A stretch of 64,000 nucleotides of DNA from assembly GCA_964291265.2 (NCBI GenBank), contig OZ219747.1:1056001-1120000 (forward strand), given 5' to 3'. Below the pieces are notes generated by a model. That model made no database searches. It worked only from the letters and a program-made list of their open reading frames with translations, and was not told the origin of the DNA. The DNA is from Alphaproteobacteria bacterium. Lineage in GTDB: Bacteria > Pseudomonadota > Alphaproteobacteria > SP197. The stretch's first letter is position 1; every line of letters starts with the position of its first letter. This document shows, piece by piece, positions 7,932-39,129 of this stretch. Both the position numbers and the translations under genes were made by a program.

Positions 7932-7932
7932 C

Positions 7933-16406: not shown

Positions 16407-16409
16407 GAT

Positions 16410-18151: not shown

Positions 18152-18599
18152 GGCTTCCTCCGGGGAGTCTGCTCGTCCGCCGGGGCGGCGAGGCCGCCCG
18201 AGGCCTTGCGGATGACGAACGGGTTGGGGCGGCCGAGGCGGCGCACATCGGGCCGTTCCCAGTGGCGGGCGTGGAAGAGGTGGAGGGCGTTGCGCGGTAC
18301 CGTCTTGCCGGCGGCGATGACGTACTGCTCGTCCGGGCGCATGGTCATCAAATCGTCGGGCGGCACCAGGAACTCCCGCACCAGCTGCGTCGATTCCCCG
18401 GTCTGGACCTGGGCCGAGGACATCAGCGCCTGCTGTTCGGAGACCGTGCCGGACCGGCTCTCCGATTCGGCGACGAACGTGGTGTGTCCGATGGCCTTGG
18501 CGAAGTCCTCCGCGCCGCGCGCGTCGGTGCGCGGGAAGCCGAGGATCTGGATGACCTCGGCGAGGTCGATCAGCGTGCGCGTGGGATCCTTCCCCCAGG
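18148..18599 (-). pseudogene. traG: 3' fragment of TraG/VirD4-type conjugative coupling protein, truncated by the IS21 end
   Basis: 'WGKDPTRTLIDLAEVIQILG...AEDFAKAIGHTTF...REFLVPPDDLMTMRPDEQYVI' matches the TraG/TraD C-terminal pattern. The frame is cut exactly at IS end 18600. Confidence 0.7.
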
Positions 18600-18749
18600 T
18601 GTCGGCGGCGATTTAGAACGGCGGGATATTGGCGGAGAACCGCTCTTTTGGGCGCTGATCGTGTGAGTGGGTGACCACGACAGGAGAACGTGCGGCATTG
18701 GACGAAGGTCCGCCCGGTCTTTGTTTTCTGCCTATTGTTGGATCCCATT

Positions 18750-23919: not shown

Positions 23920-24158
23920 ACGCCCTGCCAGATCTGCGAGACGGCGACCGTCAGCGTGGTGAGCAGGGCCTGGGCGTCGTTGCGCCGCTGGGTCTCGGTG
24001 GCCGAGTTGTAGAGCTGCACGGCGCCGATCAGGGTGGCGGCGAAGAGCGCCAGGCCCATCAGCACCTGGAAGAGCGAGATGCCGCGGCGGCGCCGGGCGA
24101 TGAGACGGCGGGCGAAGGCGCGCCGGGTGGTGGCGGGGAGCGGCAGGGTGGCTGTCAT
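23920..24158 (-). pseudogene. pilS: Second type IVb prepilin gene, truncated by the IS21 insertion
   Basis: Near-identical DNA to the 5' part of 24207..24794 up to ...QIWQGV, where IS end 23919 begins. Confidence 0.88.
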
Positions 24159-24206
24159 GGGATGGTCTCCTTGGTTCATGGGGTCGGGAAGCGGGGCGCG
24201 GGTGCG

Positions 24207-24794
24207 TCACTCGAAGGTGAAGGTGACGTCGTTGGCGCCGACGCCGTTGTTGCAGGCGGCGCGGATCCCGCCCGGGGTCATCGGCTGGGCGATGGTCGTG
24301 GAGCCGACCGCCACGCCGGCCAGCGCGCTGCTGCCGGCCGCCTGGCCGGCGTAGGGGTCGATCAGCATGGCGCAGTTCTCGTCGTCGAGGTTCTCGAAGA
24401 TGATGACGTACTCGGTGGTGGCGCCGCGGACGCGCACGCGGGCGCCGAAGGGGTGGCGGATCCTCGGGTTGCGGGCGGATTCATCGAGGGCCGATGAGGG
24501 AATGGCGCCGCGGGCGGCGAGATCCAGGACCATGTTCGTCGTGCCGTAGGTGGCGACGCCCTGCCAGATCTGCGAGACGGCGACCGTCAGCGTGGTGAGC
24601 AGGGCCTGGGCGTCGTTGCGCCGCTGGGTCTCGGTGGCCGAGTTGTAGAGCTGCACGGCGCCGATCAGGGTGGCGGCGAAGAGCGCCAGGCCCATCAGCA
24701 CCTGGAAGAGCGAGATGCCGCGGCGCCGCCGGGCGATGAGACGGCGGGCGAAGGCGCGCCGGGTGGTGGCGGGGTGCGGCAGGGTGTCTGTCAT
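24207..24794 (-). CDS. pilS: Type IVb major prepilin (PilS-like)
   Basis: Long basic leader ending RRRRG|ISLFQVLMGLAL, a hydrophobic helix, 'IRHPFG', a C-terminal Cys pair and terminal 'VTFTF'. Confidence 0.85.
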   Translation of the reverse strand: MTDTLPHPATTRRAFARRLIARRRRGISLFQVLMGLALFAATLIGAVQLYNSATETQRRNDAQALLTTLTVAVSQIWQGVATYGTTNMVLDLAARGAIPSSALDESARNPRIRHPFGARVRVRGATTEYVIIFENLDDENCAMLIDPYAGQAAGSSALAGVAVGSTTIAQPMTPGGIRAACNNGVGANDVTFTFE

Positions 24795-24824
24795 GGGATG
24801 GTCTCTCCTTCGGGCGGCGGCTGG

Positions 24825-25883
24825 TCAGATGGCGGTGGGCGCCTTGCTGGCGGCGTCCATGATGCTGAAGAGGGTCTGGATCATGGCGCCGATGATGACC
24901 GTGACGGCGAGCGTGAGGATCATGTTGAGGAGGGCGGCGCGGGCCTTCATCGTCGCCTCGGAACGCAGGACCCAGCGGTCGACGAAGCGGGCGAGCTTGA
25001 TCTCCCACCGGGGTATGTCGTCGAGGGCCGCCACCACCGGGATGAGCGCCGGGTCCGGAAAACCGTGACCCGAGAGCATCATCGCCCGGCCCATGCCGCG
25101 GCCGCTCGCCATGATCGTGCGGATGGTCTCGATGCGGTGACGGGTGTAAGGCGATGTCGCCTTCTCGAGGCGGGCGAAGGTGGCGTCGTTCAGATCGACG
25201 CCGGCGCGCAGGTACTCCAGGAGGACGAAGAGGAAGGCGGAGCCGACGATGGTGCGATAGATGCTGAACGGCGCGATCCGATCCAGGAAGGACCGTCCCG
25301 GCCCCTTCCACCGCAGCAGGACCTGGCGCAGGACGAGGGCGGCGAGGATGGCCGAGCCGATCAGCACGTGCGGGAAGGCGAAGAGCCACAGCGAGACGTC
25401 GCGGAAGACGGCGCCCAGGGGAGGCCAGCGGTCGTCGGGCAGGATCTCCTGGAACACCGGTATGAACCAGCCGCCGGCGCCCCACAGCATGAAGAGCACG
25501 GAGCCGATCAGCAGGGCGGGCAGCGCCAGGGCGGCCGTCACCGCCGCCGTCTGCCGCTGACGCAGATCGGCGACGCGCGCCGCCCCGGCGAAGAGGTGGG
25601 CGGCGTCGACCTCGCCGTAGGCCATGAAGATCATCGCCTCGGAGGCCGGGATCCAGCACGCCACCTCCGCGGCGAAGGCACCGCGCACCAGGGCGTCGCG
25701 CCAGTGGCGGATGATCCACGCCTCCTGGTTCCTGCCCTGGTCCCGCGCCGTCTGGATGGCGACCTCGAGGGCCGCCTCGATCGAGAAGTCGGCGTCGAGG
25801 AGATCGGCGAGAGTGGCGTAGAGGTCGATGCGCGCCCGCCGGCTGAGAAAGGCCCAGCAGAGGAGAGGCTTCCACCAGGTCAC
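24825..25883 (-). CDS. pilR: Type IV pilus inner-membrane platform protein (PilR/PilC/GspF family)
   Basis: GTG 25883 overlaps the upstream stop. 'RIDLYATLADLL..FSIEAAL', three TM regions and 'GHGFPDP' fit the T2SSF architecture. Confidence 0.85.
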   Translation of the reverse strand: MTWWKPLLCWAFLSRRARIDLYATLADLLDADFSIEAALEVAIQTARDQGRNQEAWIIRHWRDALVRGAFAAEVACWIPASEAMIFMAYGEVDAAHLFAGAARVADLRQRQTAAVTAALALPALLIGSVLFMLWGAGGWFIPVFQEILPDDRWPPLGAVFRDVSLWLFAFPHVLIGSAILAALVLRQVLLRWKGPGRSFLDRIAPFSIYRTIVGSAFLFVLLEYLRAGVDLNDATFARLEKATSPYTRHRIETIRTIMASGRGMGRAMMLSGHGFPDPALIPVVAALDDIPRWEIKLARFVDRWVLRSEATMKARAALLNMILTLAVTVIIGAMIQTLFSIMDAASKAPTAI

Positions 25884-26446
25884 AGGCTCTTCCTCCCCGC
25901 ACCGGGCGCGGCGATGCGCCAGGAGCAGGCCTCGCCGGACGGGATCGCGTGGAGGAAGGCGGTGAAGGCCTGGACGGGCGAAAGCCCGAGGCGGCGCGTC
26001 GCCATGGCAAGCCAGGCACCGTCCGCCGCGCCGGCCAGGGCGGCGGCGAAGTCGAGCGCCATGAACGGGTGCGCCGCCGTCATCGCGGGCCACCATGCCG
26101 GGAGACCGATCATTCCCGCCGTGGCGACCACGGCGAGGACGAGGCGGGCGTCGCCGTGCGTGCCGATCGGCACGATGCCGCCGGAGGCGGTGCTGCGGGA
26201 CCGGTGGAAGGCGATGGCGGCCAGGGCGGCGTAGAGGACGGGGATCCGGTACCAGGGCAGGTCTGCCGGCGGGGCGGCGGCGATGGAGACGAGCGCCATG
26301 ATGGCGATCAGGCCGGTCACGAGGAGGGAACGGGCGCCGTGGGCGAGGATGACGGCACGCTCTTCGCGCAGCCTGTCCTTGCCGATGGCCGGGCATGAGG
26401 GCCGGCGGATCGGGCCGAGGAGGGCGAGGAGGAGGAACCAGATCAC
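25880..26446 (-). CDS. Unknown membrane protein, repeat domain copy 4
   Basis: Motifs AHGARS, PIGTHGDAR, GAADGAW and CSWRI. GTGA-coupled at both ends. Confidence 0.7.
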   Translation of the reverse strand: MIWFLLLALLGPIRRPSCPAIGKDRLREERAVILAHGARSLLVTGLIAIMALVSIAAAPPADLPWYRIPVLYAALAAIAFHRSRSTASGGIVPIGTHGDARLVLAVVATAGMIGLPAWWPAMTAAHPFMALDFAAALAGAADGAWLAMATRRLGLSPVQAFTAFLHAIPSGEACSWRIAAPGAGRKSL

Positions 26447-27183
26447 GGCGCGTCCCCGGGGGATGAGGGCGCCGCGATCCGCCAGGTGCTGGCGTCGCGC
26501 TTGAGGGCCGTTCGCAGGAAGGCCAGGAGCGTCTGCGGGAACGTGAGCTTCATGCGGCGCATGGCGGTGGCGGTCCAGGCGCCGTCGGAGAGACCGGCGA
26601 GGCCCGCGGCAAGGAGCAGCAGGAAGAACGGGCCCGGGAGGAGCAACGAGGTCTCGGGCGAGGCGGCGAGGAAACAGAACGCGGCGATGGCGGCGATGAT
26701 GAAGCGCGAATCGCCATGGGTCCCGGGTGGTACGATGCCGCCGCAGGCGACGAGGCGGGACCAGGCGAAGCCGAGGGTGGCGCCGCCGGCCCAGGCGATC
26801 GGCGCATGGCGCCAGGCGAGATCCGCGTCCGGCGCCGCGGCGATGGAGACGAACACCATGACGGCAATCAGCCCGGTGACGAAGAGTGAGCGGGCGCCGT
26901 GGGCGAGAACGAGAGACTGATCGCCGAGTATCCTGTCTTCATCGATCGGCTTGAGGAGAGCGGGTTCGACGGGGTTGCGATCGTCAACGGCAGCGTGACC
27001 GCTGCGGTGGCGCTTGCCAGCCTCGGTGTGGCGCTCGGCAGCGACAACCCCGCTGTCAGGGTGCTCGCTGCGATCCTGTTCGTCACCACCGTCGTTGATT
27101 TTCTGCTCTGGTGGTGCGGTCTGGGCAGCATCGTCGAGTCTTTCACCGGGTGATCCCCGCCCGCTGGCGGCGGGTGCGGTCAC
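26443..27183 (-). CDS. Unknown membrane protein, repeat domain copy 3 (alternative in-frame start 27255 from a duplicated pilR 5' end)
   Basis: Motifs AHGARS, PPGTHGDSR, GLSDGAW and STWRI, preceded by an acidic N-terminal extension. Confidence 0.7.
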   Translation of the reverse strand: MTAPAASGRGSPGERLDDAAQTAPPEQKINDGGDEQDRSEHPDSGVVAAERHTEAGKRHRSGHAAVDDRNPVEPALLKPIDEDRILGDQSLVLAHGARSLFVTGLIAVMVFVSIAAAPDADLAWRHAPIAWAGGATLGFAWSRLVACGGIVPPGTHGDSRFIIAAIAAFCFLAASPETSLLLPGPFFLLLLAAGLAGLSDGAWTATAMRRMKLTFPQTLLAFLRTALKRDASTWRIAAPSSPGDAP

Positions 27184-27198
27184 GGGCCGGCCACCGGC

Positions 27199-27271
27199 GA
27201 TGCGCGCCCGGCGGTTGAGAAAGGCCCAGCTGAGGATGGGCTTCCACCAGGTCACAGGCTCTTCCTCCCCG
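27199..27271. repeat. 73-bp direct repeat of 25827-25899 (cassette end + pilR start)
   Basis: GATGCGCGCCCG..TGAGAAAGGCCCAGC..GGCTTCCACCAGGTCACAGGCTCTTCCTCCCCG is present at both positions with few mismatches. Confidence 0.9.
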
Positions 27272-28427
27272 GGCCGCGGACGCCGGCGATCGCTCCTCGC
27301 AGGAGCGCGACGAGCGCCTGGCGGAAGCCAAGGTCGAGGTGGCGCATGGCCATCGCGAGCCAGGCGCCGTCGGCGATGCCGCACACGACGGAGGCGACCA
27401 GCAGCAGGACGAACGGCAGCGGCGCCAGGCCCAGGGTGAAGGCCTCGGTGGCCGCCGGAATCAGCCAGGCGGGAGGTCCGTCCTCGACCGGCGCGGCAGT
27501 CTCGGCCGCCGACGGCAGCCCGTCGATCAGCTCGTCGACCCGGCCGTCGGGGATCGCGATGAAGAGCGCCATGGCGAGAAGGGCAAACACCACCCGGGAG
27601 TCGCCGTGGGCGCCGATGGGAATGGCGATGTCGGGGCGGCGGCGGCGGGCGAGGAAGGCGACCGCGGCAAACGCCGGCCAGGCGCCGGCGACGAGGAGCC
27701 AGGGCTGATCGATCGGCGGCGCGGCGATGAAGGAGACGGCGCCCATGGTCAGGACCGCCAGGGTGAGGACGAGGGAGCGGGTCCCGTGGGCCATGATGAG
27801 AGACGGGTCCGGGTGGACCTGCTCCAGCGGCGAGGCGAGGGCGGCCGGCGGCGCTGGCGAAGCGGATGGCGCCGGCGCCACCACGATCCGCCAGGAGCAG
27901 GCGCCAGGGAAGCGGACCGCCCGGGCGAACGCGGCGAGGGTGCGGAAGAACGGCAACTGCAGGTGGCGCATGGCCGCGCCGACCCAGGCGCCGTCGGCCA
28001 GGCCGCACAGGGCGGCGGCGATGAAGAGGAGAACGAACGAGGCGCCGGTGAGGATCAGCATCTGGACCGGCACGTCGAGGAGCGCCGGCGGGATGACGAG
28101 ACCCGCCGTGGCGGCGAGGGCGAGGACGAAGCGGGCGTCGCCGTGGGCGCCGAGCGGCACGACGGCGCCGCCGGCCGCCGTGCGGGACCATGTCCAGGCG
28201 AGGCAGGCGAGGCAGCCGTAGATGCCGGCGAGGACGATGCCTGGCAGCGCGGCGGCGGGAGTGTGCCAGGGCGGGTACGCCAGCGGATCGGTTGCCATGG
28301 CGGCCACCGCCATGACAAGAACGAGGCCGGTGACAAGGAGAGATCGGGCGCCGTGGGCGAGGATGAGAGACTGATCGCTGTGTATTCGCTCTTCATCGAG
28401 GCTCTGAGGGATGTCGAGGCGGGTCAC
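27252..28427 (-). CDS. Unknown polytopic membrane protein with two tandem repeat domains (copies 1 and 2)
   Basis: GTG 28427 overlaps the pilQ stop. Copy 1: AHGARS/PLGAHGDAR/GLADGAW. Copy 2: AHGTRS/PIGAHGDSR/GIADGAW. Confidence 0.75.
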   Translation of the reverse strand: MTRLDIPQSLDEERIHSDQSLILAHGARSLLVTGLVLVMAVAAMATDPLAYPPWHTPAAALPGIVLAGIYGCLACLAWTWSRTAAGGAVVPLGAHGDARFVLALAATAGLVIPPALLDVPVQMLILTGASFVLLFIAAALCGLADGAWVGAAMRHLQLPFFRTLAAFARAVRFPGACSWRIVVAPAPSASPAPPAALASPLEQVHPDPSLIMAHGTRSLVLTLAVLTMGAVSFIAAPPIDQPWLLVAGAWPAFAAVAFLARRRRPDIAIPIGAHGDSRVVFALLAMALFIAIPDGRVDELIDGLPSAAETAAPVEDGPPAWLIPAATEAFTLGLAPLPFVLLLVASVVCGIADGAWLAMAMRHLDLGFRQALVALLRGAIAGVRGPGRKSL

Positions 28428-30031
28428 GGTCCGGCCTCCCGGATGAGGCGCAGGCCCGGCGAGTCGTGCATGGCGTCGGCTTCCGGGATCTCGTCGGTGC
28501 GCGCGCCCTTGGCCAGGGCGTCGAGGGGATCGACGAGGCCGCGGGCGACGCTCCTCCAGATGCGCCGGGCGATGGGGACGCCGCCCATCTCCCCCGTCCA
28601 GTGCCGCCAGGCCGCGATGGGGTCGCGGCGGGCGACGTGGACGAGCCAGTCGGCGTCCGGGCGGATCATCTCCGCCACCACCTGCTGGCGCGTGTAGCCC
28701 GTCCAGGCCTGGCGGGCGATGGCGTTGGCGTCCGCGCGGCGGCAGGCGGCGCAGCCGGCGCGGTTGCGCCAGCGAGGCCGCGTGCCGAGGCGCTCGAGGT
28801 GGCGGGCGAGCCAGTCCGGCAGGGACCCCGCCGGCGGCTCGTGGAGGGCGCAGCCCTGGCAGAGCATGGGGAGCAGGGTCTGCTTCATGAGGAGCGCCAC
28901 GTTGCCTGGCTTGGTCAGGGTCGACGGCTCGACCCCCATGTCGAGCAGACGGAAGAGGATCGCGTTGGCGCTGTCGACGTGGATCGTCGTCCACACCTGG
29001 TGGCCCGTGTCGACGAACTGCAGGACCTGGCTCGCGGCGTCGTGGTCGCGGATCTCGGAGACCATGCCGGAGGCCGGGTGGACCCGGCAGAAGTGCATCA
29101 GCGCCCTCCTGAAGTGCATGGACCGCTCGTCCCCGGACCCCGATGTCGGCACGGCGATCTGCACGGCCCCGTCAATGCGGTACTCCACGGGGTCCTCCAG
29201 GGTGACGAGGTTGAGCTCGCCGCCGTGCTCGGCCTGCTGCAGGGCGAGGTTGACGGCAAGCGTCGTCGACTTGCCGTCGCCCGTGGAGCCGCCGAGGAAG
29301 ATGCCGCCCGAGAGCGACATCCTGACCTCGGCGAAGACCGCCGCCTCGGCCGCCTCGAACCCCAGCTTCTCCAGGGTCATGCCCGCTTCGAGCTGGTCGC
29401 GGTAGAAGAGGCGGCAGAACATGTGGTCGCCGCCCGGATCGTGCGGCCCCCTCTGGCAGCGCAGGCCGGAGACCGAGGGCGGCAGAGGCACCTCGCCGCC
29501 GGAGCGGATCGAGAACCCCTGGAACTCGCCCCGCTGGTAGGATGTCTGGGCCGAACCCTCGTCCTTGGCGTGGAAGAGATAGCCCATCAGCTGGCGGCCC
29601 TCCTCCCCGGGAATGGGATGGCCGAGCGCCAGCTTGGCGTCGTTGACGATGGCCGAGAGGCGGCACTCCACCCCGTCGTGCTCGAAGATGACGTCCGATG
29701 CCCGGGCCTGGGCGGCGTCGCGGAAGACCGCCGCGATCCTCCTCTTCAGATCCTCGTTCCCGGCCGTCGCCGGCCGGGCGAAGCGCCAGGCCCGGTCGAC
29801 GTCCTCGAGGGTGCCGGTCGTCTCCTGCAGGCGCTTCGGCACGCGGCCCTTGGCCTTGAGCTGACTGATGGCGCGGCGCAGCTCGGGATCGCTCTCGTAG
29901 CCCCGGGCGATGAGGCAGCGGCCGTCCGCCCGGATGGCGGCGATGCGATGCAGGCGGGCGTGGCCGGCGAGGAAGGGCACCGGGTGGTCCCCCTTCCCCT
30001 GGGGCGGCCGCTTGCGGAAGAGGTCGATCAT
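28424..30031 (-). CDS. pilQ: Type IV pilus assembly ATPase (PilQ/PilB/GspE family)
   Basis: Walker A GSTGDGKSTTL, TLEDPVEY, SEIRD, TGHQVWTTIH and two Cys pairs (CQGC, CAAC). ATGA overlap with pilP. Confidence 0.9.
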   Translation of the reverse strand: MIDLFRKRPPQGKGDHPVPFLAGHARLHRIAAIRADGRCLIARGYESDPELRRAISQLKAKGRVPKRLQETTGTLEDVDRAWRFARPATAGNEDLKRRIAAVFRDAAQARASDVIFEHDGVECRLSAIVNDAKLALGHPIPGEEGRQLMGYLFHAKDEGSAQTSYQRGEFQGFSIRSGGEVPLPPSVSGLRCQRGPHDPGGDHMFCRLFYRDQLEAGMTLEKLGFEAAEAAVFAEVRMSLSGGIFLGGSTGDGKSTTLAVNLALQQAEHGGELNLVTLEDPVEYRIDGAVQIAVPTSGSGDERSMHFRRALMHFCRVHPASGMVSEIRDHDAASQVLQFVDTGHQVWTTIHVDSANAILFRLLDMGVEPSTLTKPGNVALLMKQTLLPMLCQGCALHEPPAGSLPDWLARHLERLGTRPRWRNRAGCAACRRADANAIARQAWTGYTRQQVVAEMIRPDADWLVHVARRDPIAAWRHWTGEMGGVPIARRIWRSVARGLVDPLDALAKGARTDEIPEADAMHDSPGLRLIREAGP

Positions 30032-30849
30032 CCGCCGTCCCCGTTGCCGTGGGCGAGCGCCCAGTCGCCGGTCTCCGCGTGGCGCAGGCTCACTCCCGGC
30101 GGCTGCGCGGCGATGCGGATGACCTGCCAGCCGCCCGGCAGGTGATCGCCCTCGCGCACCCACCACACGCGGGCGCCGTCGGTCACCGCGGCGCGCATGT
30201 TCCCCGCCGTCCCCAGCATGGTCGACCAGGCGTAGGGCGGCGCCGGGTCCTCCTCCTCCTCGACCGCCTCCGGTTCGCTCTCCTGCAGGATGGTGGGCAG
30301 GGTCAGCTGCTCGAGGGCCTGGAGAGGAGGCGGCTCCGGGGCGATCACCGGGGATGTGTCGGCGGCCAGCGGCGCGGTGTCGGTCCCGGCCTCGCCGCGG
30401 GCCAGCACCGCCATCTGCAGCTCGGCCTCGAGGAGTGCGCCCACCAGCTGCTGGCGCTCCAGGCACAGGCGCAGCAGTTCGTCCTCCAGGGCCGCCGCCG
30501 CCAGGATGTCGTCCGGGGCCACGGCGGCGGCAAGGCGGGTTCTCAGGAAGTCGATGGCGCAGTCGGCCATCGGCGGGCCTTCCCCGGCGTCCGGGGCCGT
30601 CAGCATGGTGACGATGGCGGCGGTGGCCTCGTCGAGATCCGGCGCCGCCGGTTCCTGCGTCACCGGCTCTTCCTCAGGCTGAGCCGCGCCGATCACCGTC
30701 ACCTCCGCCTCCGCCGGTTCGTCCGGCGGCAACGGCAGGGGCAGCTGCTCCTCGGCGGCCAGCGGCGCGGCGAGGAGGGCGAGGACGAGGACCGCCGGCT
30801 TGATGACGCCCGCGGGCCGGGCGGCGGCATGGATGGCGGCGGCGGTCAC
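30028..30849 (-). CDS. pilP: Type IVb pilus biogenesis protein PilP-like
   Basis: Signal peptide, coiled region and C-terminal 'MLGTAGNMRAAV...VREGDHLPGGWQVIRI'. Position directly before the ATPase matches the R64 gene order. Confidence 0.7.
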   Translation of the reverse strand: MTAAAIHAAARPAGVIKPAVLVLALLAAPLAAEEQLPLPLPPDEPAEAEVTVIGAAQPEEEPVTQEPAAPDLDEATAAIVTMLTAPDAGEGPPMADCAIDFLRTRLAAAVAPDDILAAAALEDELLRLCLERQQLVGALLEAELQMAVLARGEAGTDTAPLAADTSPVIAPEPPPLQALEQLTLPTILQESEPEAVEEEEDPAPPYAWSTMLGTAGNMRAAVTDGARVWWVREGDHLPGGWQVIRIAAQPPGVSLRHAETGDWALAHGNGDGG

Positions 30850-30893
30850 CGGCTCATCCCGCGCCGGCCTCGTAGCCGGCGTGGGCCGCGAGG

Positions 30894-33334
30894 CAAAGGC
30901 ATTCGGATAAGTTTTTCCTGCGTTCGGATAAAAAAGTCCCCCGACTTCGGGTTTTGCCCGAAGCCGGGGGCCTGTCTGGCGGCTGGCGTTGGTGTCAGGC
31001 GGGTACCCGTTTCTGCCACTTGCTCCTTGGCTGCTTCGACTGCCGCACGTAGCTGCGCCCGGGCCTTTCGCGCTGGATGCAGCGCGAGAGCCCGGACATG
31101 ATCCGCCTGACGGACTGGACGACCATGGCGCTCTGTGCGAGGAACATGGCCTCGATCTCCTTGCCGACGAGGCGCAGGCTGTTGCGGAAGTTGGTGCGCA
31201 TGGCCGGCAGGTCGTCGCCGTCGTCGATGTCGTTGTCGCAGCGGTTCGCGAACTGGCGGGCGAGGGTGATGAGGACGAAGGCGGCGTAGAGTTCCTGGCG
31301 GACGCCGCGCCTGGACTTGGCGTGGAAGGCCTCGATCAGGAACTTGCCGGTCTTGTACATTTCCTCCACGCCCCAACGAGCATGATAGAGATCAGAGAGT
31401 GCGGGGACGGGATAGCGGCTGCCGTCGAGCAGGGAGGTCGCGATGTAGTACTCCGTGTCGGCATACCGGTACCTGACGAGGCGGACGCGCAGGGTCTTCG
31501 AGCGTAGCGCGGTCTCGTCCCTGGGGGCGTCGAGGGTGATGGTCCGGTCGTCCTCGCCGGAGGCGATGAAGGCGTCGAACACGGGGTTGGCGCCTTTCTG
31601 GATGCGGAACACGAAGTTGAGTTTGCGCTCCTGATGAGCGAGGGCCATGGCGAAGGAGTAGTAGCCCCGGTCGTAGACGATGACATCGCCTTCGGCAGCA
31701 TGGTCGAGGTGCACGAGGGCGGCTGCCCGCTCGTTCTCGTGGTCGAACAGGTCGAAGTCGATCGGGATGCGGTCATTGAGCCGGTAGAGTGTGCTGACCA
31801 TGCCCTGGGGGTAGTGGGCGCCGTCGCTCACACGATAGCCGTACTGTGCGAGTTCCCTGGGCAGGGTGATCTTCGAGCCGTCGACGGCGAGAGTCCTGTG
31901 ACCCTTCCACAGCGTGCACTCGGGACAGTGGGCGAGGATCTCCGCGTGCAGGCGCTTGAACGCGGCCTCGTCGAGCTTCTCCCGCGCCTCGCAGGCCGTC
32001 GATGCCGCCGGAGGCTCCGCCTGCGGCAGCTCGATGCCTGCGGCCTCGCAATGCTCCCAGAGTTCGCTGAGCGTGGTCCCGTAGCCTTGCCCGCGCGACG
32101 CGGCAACGAGGCGGAGCACGAACAGCATGATCAGCAGGCTGTTGAAGACCCGCCGACGTTTCTGCCAGCGCGCGTCCTCGCGTTCCGCAATCGCAACGGC
32201 GGCCGCAACAAGCGCCTCCCAGCGCTTCGAGAACCGCCGGTCGGCGATGGCGGACCGTCCCCGTTCAGCACGCGTCGCAGGCTTCTTCCTCGCCGCGCCG
32301 CTCTCCGAGCGCAGGATCTCGCGAGCACCCCGCTCAAGCGCCAGTACGTAGACCCCTTTGCGCGACTTGCCCCGGCCCGCGGTATCACCGATGCGTTGCC
32401 AGTTGGCCGCACGGTAGCACGAGGCCTTGAACCGGGTCTCGTCGACGAAGGTCTCGATGAGGACGGGACGCCAGCCGTGAAGACGCTCCCAGTCGTCGGC
32501 GAGGCGGCGCGTCGCCATGGCCAGGGCCGAGGACGCAAGGTTCTTCGAGACGACCCAGGGAAACACCAGGTACCTTGAATTGACCGTCATCAGGTGCCGC
32601 TTGCTGTCACGCCTGCGGTTCGTCCAGCCGATCCAGCGGTCCCGGCAGGGAAGTGTCTTCGTTGTCGCCTCGAACAGGATGCAGCCCAGCTTGCGCCCCT
32701 GCCTGTCGGTGACGAAGTAGCGGACATGCGCCCCGTAGGGGCGCTTGTAGCCGAGGTAATGATACCGGTCGACGAAGGCGTTCCACAGCTGCCGCCCCTC
32801 GGTGTCGGTGACGGGCTCGACGCGAAGCGGGCACAGTTCCGACAGCGGCGCCACGATCTCCGGCTGCGGGTCCGAGGCCGAGGTCCAGGCAGGGGGGCAG
32901 GTCATGTCGCGGACGTGGTCCTCGCGCAAGGGCGGCAAGGTCAGGATGCCGCAGCGCTCCAGGGTCTCCAGCATCCCGAGGCAGGCCCCGACCTTGTAGG
33001 CGCCCTTCGCCGTCTTCCAGTGCAGATGCTCGCAGATGGTCTTCGCCAGCTCGTTGCGGCTGTCATGGGGAAACATCTCCACGGTCTCCTGGGCATCCGC
33101 GATCTGCTGGCGGGTCAGGCGGCGGCCCGAGAAGGTGGTCGACGGCAGGGCGACGATTCGCTGGTCCATGAGTGCTTCCGCATCACCGATTCGGGGACAT
33201 CTTGCAAATCAGCGAATGCTTGTCAAGCAATGCGTGTGGAAAAACGTCCGAGAAAAGTAAAGTCCTTTATGTCAATGGGTTGACGGCGTAGGACAAGCCG
33301 CCGTTACATCGGCAGACATGCCCGAATACCATTG
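30894..33334 (-). mobile_element. IS4-family insertion sequence with 10-bp target-site duplication
   Basis: IRs CAAAGGCATTCGG (30894-30906) and CCGAATACCATTG (33322-33334). Flanking direct repeat GGCCGCGAGG at 30884-30893 and 33335-33344. Confidence 0.92.
30995..33169 (-). CDS. IS4 family transposase with N-terminal DUF4338 (DruA-like) domain
   Basis: N-terminal 'YHYLGY...RDRWIGW...NSRYLVFPWV..KNLAS...ETFVD..RF.ASCYRAANW'. DDE region 'LAVDGS', 'VYDRGY' and 'LYHARWGVEEMYK'. Confidence 0.88.
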   Translation of the reverse strand: MDQRIVALPSTTFSGRRLTRQQIADAQETVEMFPHDSRNELAKTICEHLHWKTAKGAYKVGACLGMLETLERCGILTLPPLREDHVRDMTCPPAWTSASDPQPEIVAPLSELCPLRVEPVTDTEGRQLWNAFVDRYHYLGYKRPYGAHVRYFVTDRQGRKLGCILFEATTKTLPCRDRWIGWTNRRRDSKRHLMTVNSRYLVFPWVVSKNLASSALAMATRRLADDWERLHGWRPVLIETFVDETRFKASCYRAANWQRIGDTAGRGKSRKGVYVLALERGAREILRSESGAARKKPATRAERGRSAIADRRFSKRWEALVAAAVAIAEREDARWQKRRRVFNSLLIMLFVLRLVAASRGQGYGTTLSELWEHCEAAGIELPQAEPPAASTACEAREKLDEAAFKRLHAEILAHCPECTLWKGHRTLAVDGSKITLPRELAQYGYRVSDGAHYPQGMVSTLYRLNDRIPIDFDLFDHENERAAALVHLDHAAEGDVIVYDRGYYSFAMALAHQERKLNFVFRIQKGANPVFDAFIASGEDDRTITLDAPRDETALRSKTLRVRLVRYRYADTEYYIATSLLDGSRYPVPALSDLYHARWGVEEMYKTGKFLIEAFHAKSRRGVRQELYAAFVLITLARQFANRCDNDIDDGDDLPAMRTNFRNSLRLVGKEIEAMFLAQSAMVVQSVRRIMSGLSRCIQRERPGRSYVRQSKQPRSKWQKRVPA

Positions 33335-34624
33335 GGCCGCGAGGTGGCGGCGCAGGAGGTCCCAGCGGTAGGCGGCGCGCGGGGCGATGCCGTCGACGGC
33401 GAGGACGAGGCGCCCGCGCGAGACCAGCCAGGAGCCGCCGACATCGTGGTTGACGCCGCGTACCGTGAGGGCGCCGCCCTCGGCGAAGCGGAAGATGGCG
33501 TCGCGGCCCATGTAGGGGAGGACGACATCGTCGTTCGCCGCCACCAGCCAGTCGGTCACGGCAAAGAGCGGATGGCGCTCGTCGGTGGCGAAGACCGGCA
33601 GGGCGTCGCCCGGGCGGTGGGCGTAGTCCCGGGTCGCCGGGAAGGTCTCCCAGTCCAGTTCGACACGGCGGGTGGCGGCATTCCACGCCAGGTGCCCGAT
33701 GTCGAGGATCTCGCCTGCCTCATCGACCGCCCACAGCTCGTCGCCCTCGGCGTGGAGCGCCAGGACGTACTCCCGGCCCAGGGCGTCGGTGACGATCGTG
33801 CCGTTGTTCTCCTTCAGCAGCGCGGCGAAGCGCAGCCGCGCCGCGTGCTCCGGATCGTCCGACAGCGCCGCTGTCGGTTCGGTCTCCTCGCCGGGGTGGT
33901 CGGCGCCGCGGAGCCGGTCGTGAATGTCGAACGGGCAGTGGGCCGGGAGTTCGGGGCGACCGGGAGCCTTGAAGCACCAATACCAGATGTCCCAGGGGTG
34001 CGCAGCGGCAACGCCGGTGTGGGTCGCCGGGAGCGACGTGTGGCGGTAGGGAGCATTCGGATCCTGGTCGAGGAGTTTCCAGATCGTCGGGTGGGTCTGC
34101 TTATTGTTGATGGGTACATGGTCCGGGATCGGCAGTTCCGGGCAGGCGTCCGCCATGAACCGCGGCCAGCTCTCCTGGACCCATCCGTCGGAGGAGAAAG
34201 ACCAGTAATCACCGCGTCCGGCGCGCCACTCCTCGACATGGAGACGCCCGGTGTCCGGGTTGTAGAACACCGGGGCGAGCGTGCCGTCGCGGTATTCCAC
34301 CGCTGCGGTCCAGCCCTCGCCTGATCGTGTGAACGGGCTGTGCGTCTGGTGAACTTCCGCCCGGTAGCGCCGCTTCTCACCCGTGCACTCCAGAATGTGA
34401 CCGTCCGGGTGGTGGTAGGTCGCGGAGGTAACGAGCCAGTGGCTCCAGTCTCCGGTCCATGCCTCGAACTGGATCGCAACCCGCCCGGCGAGGACCTCGC
34501 TGTAGAGTGCGGACGGCAGATGAGACCCCGGGTTCGGCGTGCGTTCGGCCACGCCGGTGGTCTTGCATCCGGCGAGGGCCATGAGGGCGGCGGCGAGCGG
34601 GGCGGCGAGAACGTGTCGAACCAT
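33272..34624 (-). CDS. Putative lipoprotein in the pilus operon; last 9 codons displaced by IS4
   Basis: AAGGAG RBS and lipobox 'ALAGC'. The original end (HAGYEAGAG-stop at 30854) lies beyond the IS. Confidence 0.7.
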   Translation of the reverse strand: MVRHVLAAPLAAALMALAGCKTTGVAERTPNPGSHLPSALYSEVLAGRVAIQFEAWTGDWSHWLVTSATYHHPDGHILECTGEKRRYRAEVHQTHSPFTRSGEGWTAAVEYRDGTLAPVFYNPDTGRLHVEEWRAGRGDYWSFSSDGWVQESWPRFMADACPELPIPDHVPINNKQTHPTIWKLLDQDPNAPYRHTSLPATHTGVAAAHPWDIWYWCFKAPGRPELPAHCPFDIHDRLRGADHPGEETEPTAALSDDPEHAARLRFAALLKENNGTIVTDALGREYVLALHAEGDELWAVDEAGEILDIGHLAWNAATRRVELDWETFPATRDYAHRPGDALPVFATDERHPLFAVTDWLVAANDDVVLPYMGRDAIFRFAEGGALTVRGVNHDVGGSWLVSRGRLVLAVDGIAPRAAYRWDLLRRHLAAQWYSGMSADVTAACPTPSTH

Positions 34625-34719
34625 GGTTTTTCTCCTTCGGGTTCCAGACGGCGGGATCACTATTTGTTCCCCTATTGTACCACCTTCCGGGAACCCCTCT
34701 TGGCGCGGGGTGTAAGCGG

Positions 34720-36204
34720 TCATCCGCGGCCCCGGTCGCTGTCGCCGCGGCCGATACCGCCGGCTGGCCCTTTGCCCCTGTCGCCTGGGCCCCCACCGCC
34801 GCCTCCCGTTGGGGAGTTGTTGACCGACCGGGCGTTGCGGAGGTCCTTGGCCGGCACCTGCCCCATGGTGTGGTAGTCGGCGCGGCCGTCGAAGTTGACG
34901 TCGATTCCCGAGTCCGGGTCGTTGCCGCCGCGGTCATTGCCGCCGTTGCCGCTGCTGGGGCAGCCGCCGCCCTTGTCGCGGTCGACGCACGGGGTCGGCG
35001 TGCGTGGCGGCGGTGGTGTCGGCGTCCGTGTCGGCGTCACGGTGGTCGTGTCGCCGCCGCCGCTGTTGCCGGTCGTCGTCACGCTCACCGTCACGACCGG
35101 TGGTGGAGGCGGCGGCGGTGGAGGCGGCGGCAGGCGGCAGCTGGTGGCGGTGGTGGTCCACGACCCGGTCGACACCAGGCGCGTCGTCGGCGCGGCGTCC
35201 CACGGCCACTGGCGGTTGAACCAGGTCAGCGTGCGCCTCTGGGTGCGGCTGCCGATGAACCCCGCCGCGCAGCCGACCGTGCGGCTGCTCGTGGTGGTGG
35301 AGGACCAGTCCCGCGGCACGGGCGGGGTCGGGTTCGGATCCGTCCAGCAGCTCGTCGAGACGAACTGCGGCGGCGTGCGCCAGGACTGGCCAGCGGCGGT
35401 GACGGCGCGCTGGCGCCGCCACACGGTCTCGCCGGTGAGGGTTCCCTGGTGCGGCGGTCCGGGCGTGAAGGTGCAGGGCTGGCGGAAGTGCACCCACTCC
35501 GTGTAGTCGGGCACGCAGTGATCGACGAGCAGGCGCCAGGCGCCGGGCACGGGGTTGCCGACGGCGGCGCCGCGGCCGTTGACCTCCTGGACGAGGTCGC
35601 GCACCCAGGCCTGGCCGGTGCCGTGGGTGGCGGCCGGGCAGGGCCGGTTCTGGCGCTCCGGCGTCAGCACCTGGCTGCGCACCGTGAGGGGATCGATCAC
35701 TTCTCCGGCCAGGGCGACGCGGCCCTCCGGCAGGGCGCCGGCCATGCAGGCCGGCAGGGTGACGCTGGCGCGGCCGAGGATGCCGCGGGCGGCGCCGGCC
35801 TCGAGCCAGTGGAGCGGCGGGACCGCGTCGTGGGTGCGCGCGGCCTCGATGTGGGGCGCGAGGCGGACCGCGCGCTGATCGGCGCCGACGCCCTTGAGGT
35901 CGGTGGCCGCGGCGAAGACGACGAGGACCTGGCCGCAGTAGAGCGCGCCGAGGCCGCGCTCCGTCCAGTCGGCCTGCCAGCCGGTGGCCGCGGGCGGCGT
36001 GGCGCCCGGCCACGCCGTCGGCGCGCTGGAGCGCAGGCGGATGTGATCCTCGAGGCGCTGCCAGGCGGCCTCGATGGTCTGCGCGTGGTTGAGGGCTTCA
36101 GCCGTGGCGGCCAGGGCTGTCGGCGCTCCTCCCAGGAAGCCTGCCAGGGCGGCGGCGAGGGCGGCGAGGCGGAGAGGCTTTGCGTAACCGTCAGGGGTCG
36201 GCAT
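34720..36204 (-). CDS. Exported Cys/Trp-repeat protein, candidate pilus-associated adhesin (PilV position/analogue)
   Basis: Signal peptide, three Cys...W...C repeats (e.g. 'SRTVGCAAGFIGSRTQRR...GSWTTTATSC'), a poly-Pro/Thr stalk and a Gly/Asn-rich tail. Confidence 0.6.
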   Translation of the reverse strand: MPTPDGYAKPLRLAALAAALAGFLGGAPTALAATAEALNHAQTIEAAWQRLEDHIRLRSSAPTAWPGATPPAATGWQADWTERGLGALYCGQVLVVFAAATDLKGVGADQRAVRLAPHIEAARTHDAVPPLHWLEAGAARGILGRASVTLPACMAGALPEGRVALAGEVIDPLTVRSQVLTPERQNRPCPAATHGTGQAWVRDLVQEVNGRGAAVGNPVPGAWRLLVDHCVPDYTEWVHFRQPCTFTPGPPHQGTLTGETVWRRQRAVTAAGQSWRTPPQFVSTSCWTDPNPTPPVPRDWSSTTTSSRTVGCAAGFIGSRTQRRTLTWFNRQWPWDAAPTTRLVSTGSWTTTATSCRLPPPPPPPPPPPVVTVSVTTTGNSGGGDTTTVTPTRTPTPPPPRTPTPCVDRDKGGGCPSSGNGGNDRGGNDPDSGIDVNFDGRADYHTMGQVPAKDLRNARSVNNSPTGGGGGGPGDRGKGPAGGIGRGDSDRGRG

Positions 36205-37441
36205 GGGTGATCTCCGTCAGCGGCGCCAGGGGTCGGGTCAATGCCTCGAAGACGCTCTCCAGGACGACGATCGGCGCCAGGGGCTGCGCCGAGAGGCGCC
36301 AGGTCCCGTCGGGCGAACGGGAGACTGCCGTCACCTCGAGTTCGGGGACCGCGGCTGCCGCCTGGCGCAGGCGGGCGAGCGATCCCGCGCCGGTCGCCGC
36401 GATGCGCCAGGCGCCGCCGTCGAGGGAGTAGGAGAGTTCCGAGGCCCAGGCGCCCACGTGGCGGTCGACCGCGGCGCGGAGCTCGCGGAAGACCGGCGTA
36501 TCCTCGCGCCATGTCTCGACGATGACGGGGTCGAGGGCCGTCACGGCCCAGGCCCGGGCCCCCTGGACCTGGCCGGCTCCCCGGCCGGGGAGGTGCACCT
36601 CCTCCATCAGCCGGCGGTTGATCGCGGGGTGGTGGCCGGCCTCCAGGGACCAGCGCAGCACCAGGGCCGGCCTCCCGGCGAGGCCGGGGAGCTGGTCAAG
36701 GACTGGCGTATCGGCAAGGCGGGCCTGGCACGCCGCCTCGTCGAGACGCCACCCCGGAAATCCTGGCGGGTGGGCCTGGATCGCCTCGTCGCAGAGGGCG
36801 AGGAACGCCGTGGTGTCCGTCACCGTCATCACCTGGCGCTCCTCGACCTCCGCCACTGGCGGAGGCTCCGGCGGAAAGAACATCTCCCACACCCGCGGAC
36901 CGAACTGCCAGGCGGCGATGCCGATCCCTCCCAGCACGGCGGCCGAGGCGATGATGCGCAGGGCGCCGCGAAGGCGGCTCGCCGTGGGCGCCGACTCCAG
37001 GCGCATCTCGTCGGTGATCTGCACCACGGAGAGATCGAGGGGCCGGGCGGTGTCGATGTTCAGCGGGCCGGACGCATGGCGCGGCTTCTCCGACTGCAGC
37101 AGGATGGAGGCTGCGTCCTCCGTCTCGAGACGGGACTCGGCCGGCCTTTCCTCCAGACGACTGGAGCCGCAGCGCACCACGGCGACCTTGCCGTCGTCGT
37201 CGGCGATCGCGGTGATCCAGTCCGGGCTGCCGATGGCGGCATGGACAGCCACGGCCAGGCTGATGGTCGCCGAGGGGTCGCCTTCGTCGGCGGCGGCGAA
37301 CCCCGTCTGGTGTGCGGTGTGGACGAAGGCCGCCGCGCCGAGTTCGCGCGCCGAGGCGGCGAGATCGCTCTCGCCGACGCGGGGCCGCCAGGCGAGGCCC
37401 GCGGCGAAGGTCGCGCCGCGAATGGTCAGCAGGCTGCTCAC
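36191..37441 (-). CDS. pilO: Type IVb pilus accessory protein PilO-like
   Basis: N-terminal 'GATFAAGLAWRP', a single central TM and 'GWRLDEAAC'. It follows the secretin with GTGA coupling. Confidence 0.7.
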   Translation of the reverse strand: MSSLLTIRGATFAAGLAWRPRVGESDLAASARELGAAAFVHTAHQTGFAAADEGDPSATISLAVAVHAAIGSPDWITAIADDDGKVAVVRCGSSRLEERPAESRLETEDAASILLQSEKPRHASGPLNIDTARPLDLSVVQITDEMRLESAPTASRLRGALRIIASAAVLGGIGIAAWQFGPRVWEMFFPPEPPPVAEVEERQVMTVTDTTAFLALCDEAIQAHPPGFPGWRLDEAACQARLADTPVLDQLPGLAGRPALVLRWSLEAGHHPAINRRLMEEVHLPGRGAGQVQGARAWAVTALDPVIVETWREDTPVFRELRAAVDRHVGAWASELSYSLDGGAWRIAATGAGSLARLRQAAAAVPELEVTAVSRSPDGTWRLSAQPLAPIVVLESVFEALTRPLAPLTEITHADP

Positions 37442-38994
37442 AGGACCTCCCCCGGGCGCTCGAGGATGCCCATGGGCGCCCCGGCCTCGGCGCGGATCAG
37501 GAGCACCTGCTCGGTGAGGACATCCTCGGAGGCCGTGCCGCCGAAAGGCAGGGGAACGTCGGCGTCGAAGGTGCCCGACCGGTCGCCGCTCGTGGCCCGG
37601 TCCCGGAAGCCGGTGATGACAAGGGTCTCGCCGCGCCCCACGCGCTGGGTGATCTGCACCGCGCGGTTGCCGAAGGATGGAAGCTGCAGGCGGAGAGCGC
37701 CGCCGGCGCCGCCGGCGGCGAAGACCTCGAAGGCCGGGCGGTCGACGATGGAGGCGAAGAGCCGCACCAGGACCTCGCCCGGCGCGACGATCTGGGCGGT
37801 GTAGGTCAGCGAGAAGCCCGAGGCGATGTTCCCGGGGATGAGGTTGGTCTGCAGCAGTCCGTCCTGCAGCGTGGTGCGGATCTCCTTGAGGTAGGCCCGC
37901 GAGAAGAGCTCGGTGAACTGGGCTGGCTGGGCGTTCAGCGACGGCAGGGTGGCGGTCAGCTCCCGCGACACCGTTCCCGCTTCCTGGAGGGCTTTAACCG
38001 CGGCGTCGAGGGTGTCGGCAGCAGGTCCGGGCTGGATGACGCTGATGTCGTTGCTGACGACGCTGATGCCGGCTGACGTGCCGAATACGCTCTCGAGGGC
38101 GCCGGCGATGCCGAGGTCGAAGGACCTCTGGTCGGTGAAGCGCACGGTGTAGACCGCGACGGTCAGCGTGACGGGCCGCAGGACCGTGCGGTTGAGCCAG
38201 TCCATGTAGCGGCGGGCGCGGTCGATGTCGCGAGGCAGGCCCGCGACGGTCATCGACGCCGTCGCCGGTGCGGCGGCGACCGTCGTGGAGGGATGGAGGA
38301 CGGCGACCAGCTGCTCCGTGATGTCGGTCCACGGGTCGTAGGTCGCCTCCGTCGTGATCGCCTGATCGGCGGTGTTGCCGGCCTCGCTCTCTCCGGCGGC
38401 GTCCGAGGCGGCAGTGGACCCGGACGCGGTCTGCACGCCGGCGAGGGCGTTCAGCCGGAAGACGACCGCCTCGGCGCGAACGACCATGATCTCGCCCTCG
38501 TCAGGGTCCCAGTGCCAGCGATAGCCCCGGGTCGCGGTCCAGGCATCGAGGAGAGCGTCGAGCGGTCCAGTCCAGATGCCTCCTTCCGGGAGGGCGGTCG
38601 GTGCGCTCTGGAAGGGATCCTCCGGCGCCTCGACCGGACGGGTGCCGGTGAAGCGCACGGGGACACCGGTGGCGGCCTCGATGGTGGCGGCGAGGTTGAC
38701 GTCGTCCGTGAGTCCGGCGAGCGAGAGCGACACCGCGTCCTCGGCCACGAGCTCGTCCGGGAGGGTCGGTGCCTCGTCCTCGATGACGGTGAGGCCCGTC
38801 CAGGGGCGCTCGGGGTCGACGGTCAGCACCGAGTATCCCGGTGTGGCGGATGGCGCCAGCTCCTCGATGATTCCGCTGACGTCCTCGGTGTGCTGGCGGA
38901 CACTTTCCGATCCGCCGGGGTCGAATGCGCTGCAGGCGGTCAGGGTCGCCGGCAAAGTGAAAATGAGGAGAAGGCGGACCGGGGAAACCGACAT
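37438..38994 (-). CDS. pilN: Type IVb pilus secretin lipoprotein PilN (BfpB-like)
   Basis: Lipobox 'TLTAC', 'WTGPLDALLD', 'LNAQPAQF', 'SGFSL', 'LQLP' and 'GETLVITGF'. Start could extend to 39069. Confidence 0.85.
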   Translation of the reverse strand: MSVSPVRLLLIFTLPATLTACSAFDPGGSESVRQHTEDVSGIIEELAPSATPGYSVLTVDPERPWTGLTVIEDEAPTLPDELVAEDAVSLSLAGLTDDVNLAATIEAATGVPVRFTGTRPVEAPEDPFQSAPTALPEGGIWTGPLDALLDAWTATRGYRWHWDPDEGEIMVVRAEAVVFRLNALAGVQTASGSTAASDAAGESEAGNTADQAITTEATYDPWTDITEQLVAVLHPSTTVAAAPATASMTVAGLPRDIDRARRYMDWLNRTVLRPVTLTVAVYTVRFTDQRSFDLGIAGALESVFGTSAGISVVSNDISVIQPGPAADTLDAAVKALQEAGTVSRELTATLPSLNAQPAQFTELFSRAYLKEIRTTLQDGLLQTNLIPGNIASGFSLTYTAQIVAPGEVLVRLFASIVDRPAFEVFAAGGAGGALRLQLPSFGNRAVQITQRVGRGETLVITGFRDRATSGDRSGTFDADVPLPFGGTASEDVLTEQVLLIRAEAGAPMGILERPGEVL

Positions 38995-39129
38995 GATGCG
39001 CCGCCGCAGCCGATCGGGGTTGACGGCAGCCGCCAAGTGGCGGATACTGACCATATCCAGCGTCGCCATTGGCTATGGCGTGGGGTTATGGGAGGCCGCT
39101 GATTGTTCGCGCCCTGCGGCCTGATGTCG

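What the first reader, a model, noticed from the sequence alone, without database searches (positions are those of the whole stretch)
25880..28427. Array of four paralogous unknown membrane domains inserted between pilQ and pilR of a type IVb pilus operon
Seen: three translationally coupled ORFs carry four diverged copies of a ~150-aa hydrophobic domain with invariant polar motifs AHG[AT]RS, P.G[AT]HGD[AS]R and G..DGAW, while the intervening TM sequences differ. Known: in the R64-type pil operon pilQ is followed directly by pilR, and I recognise no family with these motifs. Inference: this is an undescribed pilus-linked membrane family. Two conserved His plus two Asp suggest a metal site or catalytic centre. 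Diversified multiple copies suggest an allele-specific role such as entry/surface exclusion, immunity to a contact-delivered effector, pilus-phage resistance or pilin modification.
Basis: partly seen in the sequence, partly recalled or inferred. Interest (0 to 1): 0.78.

Follow-up and report, generated by a model that had tools for sequence, protein, structure and literature searches.

The report
Pilus-operon cassette hiding an antisense gene
Four diverged copies of an unnamed membrane protein sit in a swappable slot of a pilus operon on a mobile element, and one copy overlaps, on the opposite strand, a conserved hydrophobic reading frame that is likely a small gene, a layout that would fit a toxin with a growing collection of antidotes.

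Summary
In detail: three coupled ORFs between pilQ and pilR carry four copies (38-47% identical) of a predicted four-helix membrane domain with no Pfam, NCBIfam or PADLOC family. The metal-site idea fails: across 38 homologues the second His is kept in only 14, while Arg84 and Asp124 are invariant. The insert is optional (4 of 10 same-genus pil operons have it), holds 1-4 copies, and its copies group by allele type across genomes, so near-identical operons carry different inserts. New here: the hydrophilic leader of 'long' copies overlaps, codon for codon, a 79-84-codon hydrophobic antisense ORF (window 26899-27153, +) whose stop is kept at the same place in five loci. A sister strain lacks ORFs B and C but has a long A1 with the stop where predicted; the window's A1 has lost that leader in frame. 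Each pilQ-pilR slot keeps at most one antisense ORF but gathers domain alleles, as immunity arrays do. Best reading: a likely small membrane toxin with stacked antidotes (0.35); exclusion or pilus-accessory roles remain open. Expression and function are untested, and substitution patterns do not single out the antisense frame.

The parts
28424..30031 (-). pilQ, pilus assembly ATPase; its stop overlaps the start of ORF A
   Evidence: PF00437 E 3e-40; junction
27252..28427 (-). ORF A, 391 aa: two fused domains, A1 (about 27870-28403) and A2 (about 27255-27839, subtype with a 30-35 aa insertion in the second outer loop)
28353..28420 (+). Remnant first 22 codons of A1's antisense ORF; a 210-nt in-frame piece is missing at 28420/28422 relative to the strain in run X3
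   Evidence: (211 letters in place of 1)
27198..27285 (-). First copy of an 88-nt repeat: end of a domain gene plus the first 19 codons of pilR, now fused in frame to ORF B; upstream edge of the 1372-nt B+C module
   Evidence: D10, 88% identical, spacing 1372; X3 contig skips 25839 to 27212
26443..27255 (-). ORF B, 'long' form: hydrophilic leader of about 95 codons (probable own start GTG 27183, preceded by a pilQ-end-like remnant) plus one four-helix domain
26899..27153 (+). Nested antisense ORF, 84 codons, two hydrophobic segments; starts on the complement of the AHG His codon and stops on the complement of a TCA at codon 11 of the long form; likely gene, expression untested
25880..26446 (-). 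ORF C, 188 aa, short form, one domain; type found last in the array in G013 and L028 as well
25826..25913 (-). Second copy of the 88-nt repeat (end of C plus true pilR start)
24825..25883 (-). pilR, inner-membrane platform protein
   Evidence: PF00482 E 3e-7
24207..24794 (-). pilS, major pilin; its first 250 nt are repeated at 23920-24169 (99%)
   Evidence: PF08805, PF05307; D2
30028..39069 (-). Upstream pil genes: pilP (30028-30849), an inserted DruA/DDE transposase, an unnamed lipoprotein-like ORF (33272-34723), an unnamed 494-aa ORF (34720-36204), pilO-like (36191-37441), pilN (37438-39069)
   Evidence: the two unnamed ORFs have no family hit

Best explanation
The insert is a swappable cassette of a type IVb pilus operon on a conjugative-type integrated element, in which the four-helix membrane proteins likely act as allele-specific antidotes and the nested antisense ORF likely encodes the small membrane toxin that they would neutralise. 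Shown: the slot is optional and hypervariable, holds one to four domain alleles of different types, and holds at most one intact antisense ORF. Shown: modules arrive with a duplicated piece of the downstream gene, and leaders are lost in frame while the domain is kept. Inferred: the antisense ORF is translated from its own transcript into a helical-hairpin inner-membrane peptide. Inferred: the peptide harms a cell that lacks a matching antidote, either after loss of the element or when a sister element with another allele enters or makes contact. Inferred: when a new long module is captured, the older toxin is deleted and its antidote kept, which widens protection and builds the array. The conserved Arg and Asp residues are predicted to form a structural polar core on the cytoplasmic face, not a metal site.
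For: Optional: 10 of 33 family genomes have this pilR, 4 of 33 have the domain, and pilQ abuts pilR in the other 6 of 6. Hypervariable: G013 and L029 have almost identical PilQ (branch lengths 0.006 and 0.018) but three copies versus one of another type; L028 versus L031 likewise. The four window copies fall in four different places of a 39-row quick tree; B, C and A2 each group with alleles from other genomes; this is the criterion PMC5361080 (section 13 read) uses for immunity arrays built by capture, not duplication. Antisense ORF: 84 codons without gaps in G000, G013, G005, L028 and 79 in L029, all ending in TGA on a sense TCA at codon 11; TCA is 5.7% of Ser codons and 0 of 196 conserved 4- or 6-codon columns of pilQ/pilR keep a rare codon in all five loci. 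Codon use over the leader favours the antisense strand (0.6-1.4% tail of real-gene windows for G000, G013, G005); only 42 of 13,922 open antisense windows of real genes are as hydrophobic. Natural experiment: a contig of run X3 (94-98% identical) skips exactly the 1372-nt B+C module and has 210 more bases in frame at the A1 start, with TGA at letters 4-6 of the last 30, codon 85 as expected. One allele is long and first in L028 but short and second in G013. Topology by charge: mean K+R 3.0 and 4.3 in the inner loop and tail versus 0.3-0.5 in the outer loops; four long helices at mean pLDDT 85. Four-pass inner-membrane immunity proteins are known for colicin A-type toxins (PMC10906532, passages).
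Against: No toxicity, expression or partner test exists. Substitutions do not single out the antisense frame: amino-acid identity 27% antisense versus 29% sense, silent changes 47 versus 55, and the most variable codon position is the sense third position. Any hydrophilic leader gives a hydrophobic antisense frame, and such frames are usually open in GC-rich DNA (13,922 of 18,298 windows). Only 3 of 5 antisense ORFs reach two segments at hydropathy 1.6. G005 keeps an intact antisense ORF on a copy whose own domain is cut to one helix, which a strict cognate antidote model would need its neighbours to cover. G009's long leader has no TCA stop and a weaker signal, and 6 of 16 long proteins have no Ser at offset 78 or 84. 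In the window the long copy is third, not first as the displacement model expects. The antisense ORFs have no homologue outside these loci (4 hits), and no delivery signal is evident. Leader loss rests on two events only. The X3 insertion was seen only by length and its last 30 letters.
Confidence: 0.35

Rival explanations
2. Pilus accessory: the domain binds PilR or PilQ on the cytoplasmic face and tunes or blocks pilus assembly (for example against pilus-binding phages); the antisense ORF is a separate small membrane protein or a regulatory transcript.
For: Tight translational coupling between pilQ and pilR in all loci; the conserved residues face the cytoplasm, where PilQ and PilR meet; the second site in G013 is also next to a secretion ATPase gene.
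Against: Dispensable in 6 of 10 operons; different allele sets on near-identical PilQ/PilR argue against a fixed partner surface; does not explain one antisense ORF per slot.
Confidence: 0.2
3. The antisense ORF is a shadow of a disordered hydrophilic leader, and the array grows nearly neutrally by recombination between co-resident elements at microhomologies in pilQ, pilR and traJ ends.
For: Ambiguous substitution pattern; duplicated flanks at both insertion sites (88 nt at pilR, 139 nt at traI/traJ); mosaic C-terminal tails between alleles; truncated copy in G005.
Against: Rare-codon stop kept at one position in five loci and found where expected in X3; gap-free length at 27% identity; low sense GC3; domains stay intact and in frame at 38-47% identity.
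Confidence: 0.15
4. A membrane enzyme with a His/Asp metal site or a GxGD-like aspartyl protease centre that processes or modifies pilin.
For: G..GD.R resembles the GxGD motif of prepilin peptidases (motif recalled, not from a call); Asp124 and Arg84 are invariant in 38 of 38 rows and lie on one face.
Against: His80 14 of 38, His19 26 of 30, Asp82 replaced by Glu or Ala in 4 of 38; no peptidase family among 36 members scanned at E up to 1; hhalign to R64 PilU 0.1%; G013 has a separate peptidase-like ORF downstream of pilS (label by sequence and position); optional and multi-allelic.
Confidence: 0.07

Closest known systems
T6SS effector-immunity arrays of Vibrio cholerae (PMC5361080; abstract and section 13 read)
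   Same: Arrays of alleles that group across strains, not within a genome; capture of new modules by homology-helped recombination; old protective gene kept while its partner is lost.
   Different: No T6SS, VgrG or Rhs gene here; the slot is in a type IVb pil operon; the putative partner is an 84-codon ORF nested antisense inside the protective gene; the newest module is third, not first, in the window; no function shown.
Colicin A-type immunity proteins (PMC10906532, passages)
   Same: About 170-190 aa, four transmembrane helices, inner membrane.
   Different: No sequence match to any colicin immunity family in Pfam; no colicin gene near; multi-allelic array.
ExcA entry exclusion protein of IncI1/IncL plasmids (PMC12365149 and PMC12282955, passages; R64 record)
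   Same: Inner-membrane accessory of an MPF_I transfer system, variable between related elements.
   Different: ExcA follows traY, is single-copy, and has its hydrophobic segments in the first 80 residues followed by a polar domain; no profile similarity; this family sits in the pil operon.
R64-type thin pilus operon with MPF_I (Dot/Icm-like) transfer region
   Same: pilN, O, P, Q, R, S order; relatives carry TraI, DotH/IcmK, DotI/IcmL, a TraJ-like ATPase and a coupling protein.
   Different: Chromosomal and tRNA-adjacent in an uncultured Alphaproteobacteria genus; extra genes between pilO and pilP and between pilQ and pilR; the window's copy has lost the tra region.

Membership tests
Prepilin peptidase (A24, GxGD) | Profile match to the family | tested here: not met
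   No such Pfam or NCBIfam hit at E up to 1; hhalign to R64 PilU 0.1%
Prepilin peptidase (A24, GxGD) | Two invariant Asp, the first upstream of GxGD (definition recalled) | tested here: not met
   Asp of G..GD.R is Glu or Ala in 4 of 38; the invariant Asp124 lies downstream
His/Asp membrane metalloenzyme | Invariant His ligands | tested here: not met
   His80 14 of 38, His19 26 of 30
His/Asp membrane metalloenzyme | Ligands cluster in 3D and bind metal | not testable with these tools
ExcA (IncI1/IncL entry exclusion) | Sequence homology to ExcA | tested here: not met
   hhalign 0.2%; no NCBIfam hit for A, B or C; no tblastn hit in 72,556 plasmids for B or P0038
ExcA (IncI1/IncL entry exclusion) | Gene directly after traY | tested here: not met
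   TraY-like gene runs into the coupling-protein gene in 9 of 9 elements; family copies lie at pilQ/pilR or traI/traJ
ExcA (IncI1/IncL entry exclusion) | Blocks entry of the cognate element | not testable with these tools
   needs mating assays
Colicin A-type immunity protein | Four transmembrane helices, about 20 kDa | tested here: met
   four long helices, hydropathy and charge pattern
Colicin A-type immunity protein | Homology to known immunity families and an adjacent colicin gene | tested here: not met
   no hit in Pfam, PADLOC; neighbours are pil genes
Polymorphic toxin-immunity array | Alleles in one genome group with alleles of other genomes | tested here: met
   quick tree of 39 rows; G005's two copies are both of the loop subtype, an exception
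Polymorphic toxin-immunity array | One intact toxin gene, older ones truncated with immunity kept | tested here: inconclusive
   At most one intact antisense ORF per slot and two leader losses, but the ORF is not shown to be a toxin and G005 shows the reverse truncation
Polymorphic toxin-immunity array | Toxicity and allele-specific rescue | not testable with these tools
   needs expression tests
Any solved membrane fold (MFS half, MAPEG, DMT) | Clear structural match | tested here: inconclusive
   see Tried and rejected

The most novel reading that the evidence does not exclude
A new kind of conflict module in which a small membrane toxin is encoded antisense, codon for codon, inside the leader of its own antidote gene, so that both travel as one unit and a single in-frame deletion disarms the toxin while keeping the antidote; conjugative elements stack these antidotes inside the pilus operon to survive or repel sister elements.
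Probability: 0.25. Interest if true: 0.85.

Novelty: new variant of a known kind. Interest (0 to 1): 0.62.

Why it matters
If true, it gives a compact, testable case of a fully nested sense-antisense gene pair in bacteria with a visible evolutionary logic, and a new specificity system for Dot/Icm-like conjugative elements that lack the usual excA. Even if the toxin reading is wrong, the family is unnamed, has matched natural alleles, and a sister strain supplies a ready comparison. Its narrow known range (one genus among the genomes searched, plus a few unplaced distant proteins) limits the reach.

Tried and rejected
Family libraries: Pfam, NCBIfam, PADLOC (106, 0 of 38 members), PHROGs (107, one unnamed family in 2 of 38 at E 0.002), PDB sequences (30, none at E 10). 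ESM Atlas: best 0.80 for ORF C and for an antisense protein, leads only. Fold searches with the domain model: no Foldseek match at E 0.001 in PDB or BFVD (51, 52); VIA-align best Z 9.5 (rmsd 3.8, 151 aligned), mostly MFS halves, below the level of about 13 the tool gives for helical bundles; this neither names nor excludes a fold. Complex prediction of domain B with the antisense protein: no answer, score 0.00, neither for nor against. A fold of the full long form was queued and had not finished; no result is used. Sequencing runs: no RNA holder listed. Viral contigs, plasmids: no relatives. Class-wide search: 1 of 301 genomes, but only up to 9 candidates per genome were scored. P0036 is an IPT-like repeat protein and was dropped as a false hit; P0004, P0035 and P0022 were left out of alignments A2 and A5, and rows of 130 aa or less out of the tree. 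Sigma-70 and terminator scan: none, expected about none. A close-pair test of the two frames failed because P0025 and P0047 are not from one locus (72 of 78 positions compatible). Co-occurrence with the lipoprotein-like ORF 33272-34723 is not strict: it is in 9 of 33 genomes, including ones without the insert. No DNA context could be had for the distant group P0037-P0042. Earlier scan findings: none. Literature: searches found no paper on this family, slot or nested layout; the library lacks most subscription journals.
Full report
Observation. Between pilQ (PF00437) and pilR (PF00482) lie three minus-strand ORFs with overlapping stop and start codons: A (391 aa), B (270 aa) and C (188 aa). An AlphaFold model of domain C from 36 sequences has mean pLDDT 85 with four long helices and two short C-terminal ones. 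Lys and Arg concentrate in the N-terminal segment, the second loop and the tail, which puts these, and the conserved polar residues, on the cytoplasmic side (inferred).

Family. Protein searches returned 42 family sequences in all, 3 of them the window's own (P0036 dropped as a false hit). None matches a Pfam, NCBIfam or PADLOC family above noise. In 38 aligned rows Pro76, Gly81, Arg84 and Asp124 are invariant; His19 is His in 26 of 30, His80 in 14 of 38, Asp82 in 34 of 38. The two-His site is therefore not a family feature. Profile comparison with R64 PilU, ExcA and TraX gives 0.1-0.2%.

Setting. Relatives are Alphaproteobacteria MAGs; the order holds one family of 33 genomes, and the domain is found in 4 of them, all in one genus. 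In G013 the pil operon is followed by TraI, a TraJ-like ATPase, DotI/IcmL, DotH/IcmK and a coupling protein (Pfam), with TraU-, TraW- and TraY-like ORFs named by size and position only. G005 and G009 have a tRNA just upstream of pilN, and the window's high-GC island starts near a tRNA-Arg about 23 kb left of the window. So this is an integrated MPF_I-type element (inferred). In G000 the transfer genes are not found except the 3' end of the coupling protein; an IS21 sits after pilS.

The slot is optional and hypervariable. Ten of 33 genomes have this pilR; in the six without the domain, pilQ abuts pilR. Those six form one group in the PilR tree (83/98, not starred) but not a resolved group in the PilQ tree, so presence may reflect a single gain or loss. 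Copy number is 4 in G000, 3 in G013, 2 plus a truncated one in G005, 2 in L028, 1 in G009, L029 and L030/L031. G013 and L029 have almost identical PilQ but unrelated inserts, as do L028 and L031, and copies group by type across genomes in a quick tree of 39 rows (the careful tree did not finish). G013 has one more diverged copy between traI and traJ, flanked by a 139-nt duplication of the traI end and traJ start.

How the window's array arose. An 88-nt repeat spaced 1372 nt brackets B and C. A 3146-nt contig of run X3, 94-98% identical to the window, skips exactly that stretch. B's probable own start (27183) is preceded by a remnant like a pilQ end. B+C is thus likely the whole insert of a second element, captured at codon 19 of pilR. 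Run X1 matches the window without differences and may be its source, so it is not independent.

The nested antisense ORF. Long copies have a hydrophilic leader of about 95 codons with low third-position GC. On the other strand, in the same codon register, an ORF starts on the complement of the AHG His codon and runs 84 codons in G000, G013, G005 and L028 and 79 in L029, ending in TGA on a sense TCA at codon 11. TCA is 5.7% of Ser codons; in pilQ and pilR of the same five loci 0 of 196 conserved columns keep a rare codon throughout, and 0 of 35 codons in conserved Ser columns are TCA. Hydropathy of residues 25 onward is 1.37-1.55, reached by 42 of 13,922 open antisense windows of real genes. 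Codon log-odds put the G000, G013 and G005 leaders in the 0.6-1.4% tail, G009 and the traI/traJ copy at 3-4% (the model was trained on G000 ORFs picked by GC pattern). The X3 contig has 211 letters in place of 1 at the A1 start; I expected an intact ORF (note) and the last 30 letters show TGA at letters 4-6, codon 85 (arithmetic printed afterwards). Against: identity is 27% in the antisense and 29% in the sense frame, silent changes 47 versus 55; G009 lacks the stop; 6 of 16 long proteins lack a Ser at offset 78 or 84; only 3 of 5 ORFs pass a two-segment threshold. I put the chance that it is a translated gene near 0.7 (judgement).

Pattern. Each of 8 slots seen (seven loci and the X3 strain) has at most one intact antisense ORF: one in G000, G013, G005, L028, L029 and probably X3, none clear in G009, none in L030/L031. 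The window's A1 and G013's second copy keep only the first 15-22 antisense codons while the same or a near allele is long elsewhere. No slot has the ORF without an intact domain, though in G005 the ORF's own domain is truncated.

Mechanism. The pattern matches how immunity arrays grow by capture with loss of the old effector (PMC5361080, abstract and section 13 read), and four-pass inner-membrane immunity proteins exist for pore-forming colicins (PMC10906532, passages). I therefore commit to a small membrane toxin with stacked antidotes at 0.35. Exclusion (0.2) draws on the absence of a gene after the TraY-like ORF in 9 of 9 elements and on known inner-membrane exclusion factors (PMC12282955 and PMC12365149, passages), but elements without the insert lack such a gene too. 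A pilus accessory (0.2), a shadow ORF with neutral accretion (0.15) and an enzyme (0.07) follow. All functional steps are inference.

Novelty. Five literature searches and three look-ups of earlier scan notes found nothing on this family or layout; other papers were seen only as search listings, and no supplements were read. It is not a member of any family tested. It likely works like a known kind of array, with an arrangement I could not find described. Verdict: real, unnamed, new variant of a known kind, interest 0.62.

Noticed in passing
window 23920-24169 and 24556-24805: The first 250 nt of pilS are repeated at 99% identity just downstream; the second copy is cut off next to an IS21 region, where G013 continues with further pil and tra genes.
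   Followed up: partly
window 33272-34723 (-): Unnamed 483-aa lipoprotein-like ORF between the 494-aa ORF and pilP; about 50% identical copies at the same place in G013, G009, G005, absent there in G008, and up to three matches elsewhere in G012. No Pfam or NCBIfam family.
   Followed up: partly
window 34720-36204 (-): Unnamed 494-aa ORF after pilO with a conserved first 350 aa and a variable, Cys- and Pro/Thr-rich tail; position suggests a minor pilin or adhesin, label unverified.
   Followed up: no
window 30995-33169 (-): DruA-like domain fused to a DDE transposase, inserted in the pil operon between the lipoprotein-like ORF and pilP; may affect transcription of pilP-S.
   Followed up: no
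window 2979-16418: Cargo of the island: SF1 helicase with a C-terminal nuclease-like domain, HATPase plus C5 methylase, DUF5131, N6-methylase fusion, resolvase, WGR protein; looks like restriction and defence cargo.
   Followed up: no
window 18148-18600: Only the 3' end of the coupling-protein gene remains (89% identical to G013); the tra region was not found in G000, yet pilN-pilS and all four domain copies are intact.
   Followed up: partly
L012 17388-18419 (-): Diverged family copy between traI and traJ of G013 with a 139-nt flank duplication and a 97-codon antisense ORF of weaker signal.
   Followed up: partly
P0037-P0042: Distant subgroup (19-25% identity) with long leaders and a shared Ser 78 residues before the His position; one lies on a 3.9 Mb contig; host and context unknown.
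   Followed up: partly
P0004, P0011, P0025 versus L029: A second two-domain fusion (P0004) and mosaic C-terminal tails suggest crossovers in the conserved ADGAW-coding stretch.
   Followed up: partly
L055 8947-8948 (G008): pilR is split by a frameshift in G008; G005 has several apparently frameshifted tra genes, either decay or assembly error.
   Followed up: no
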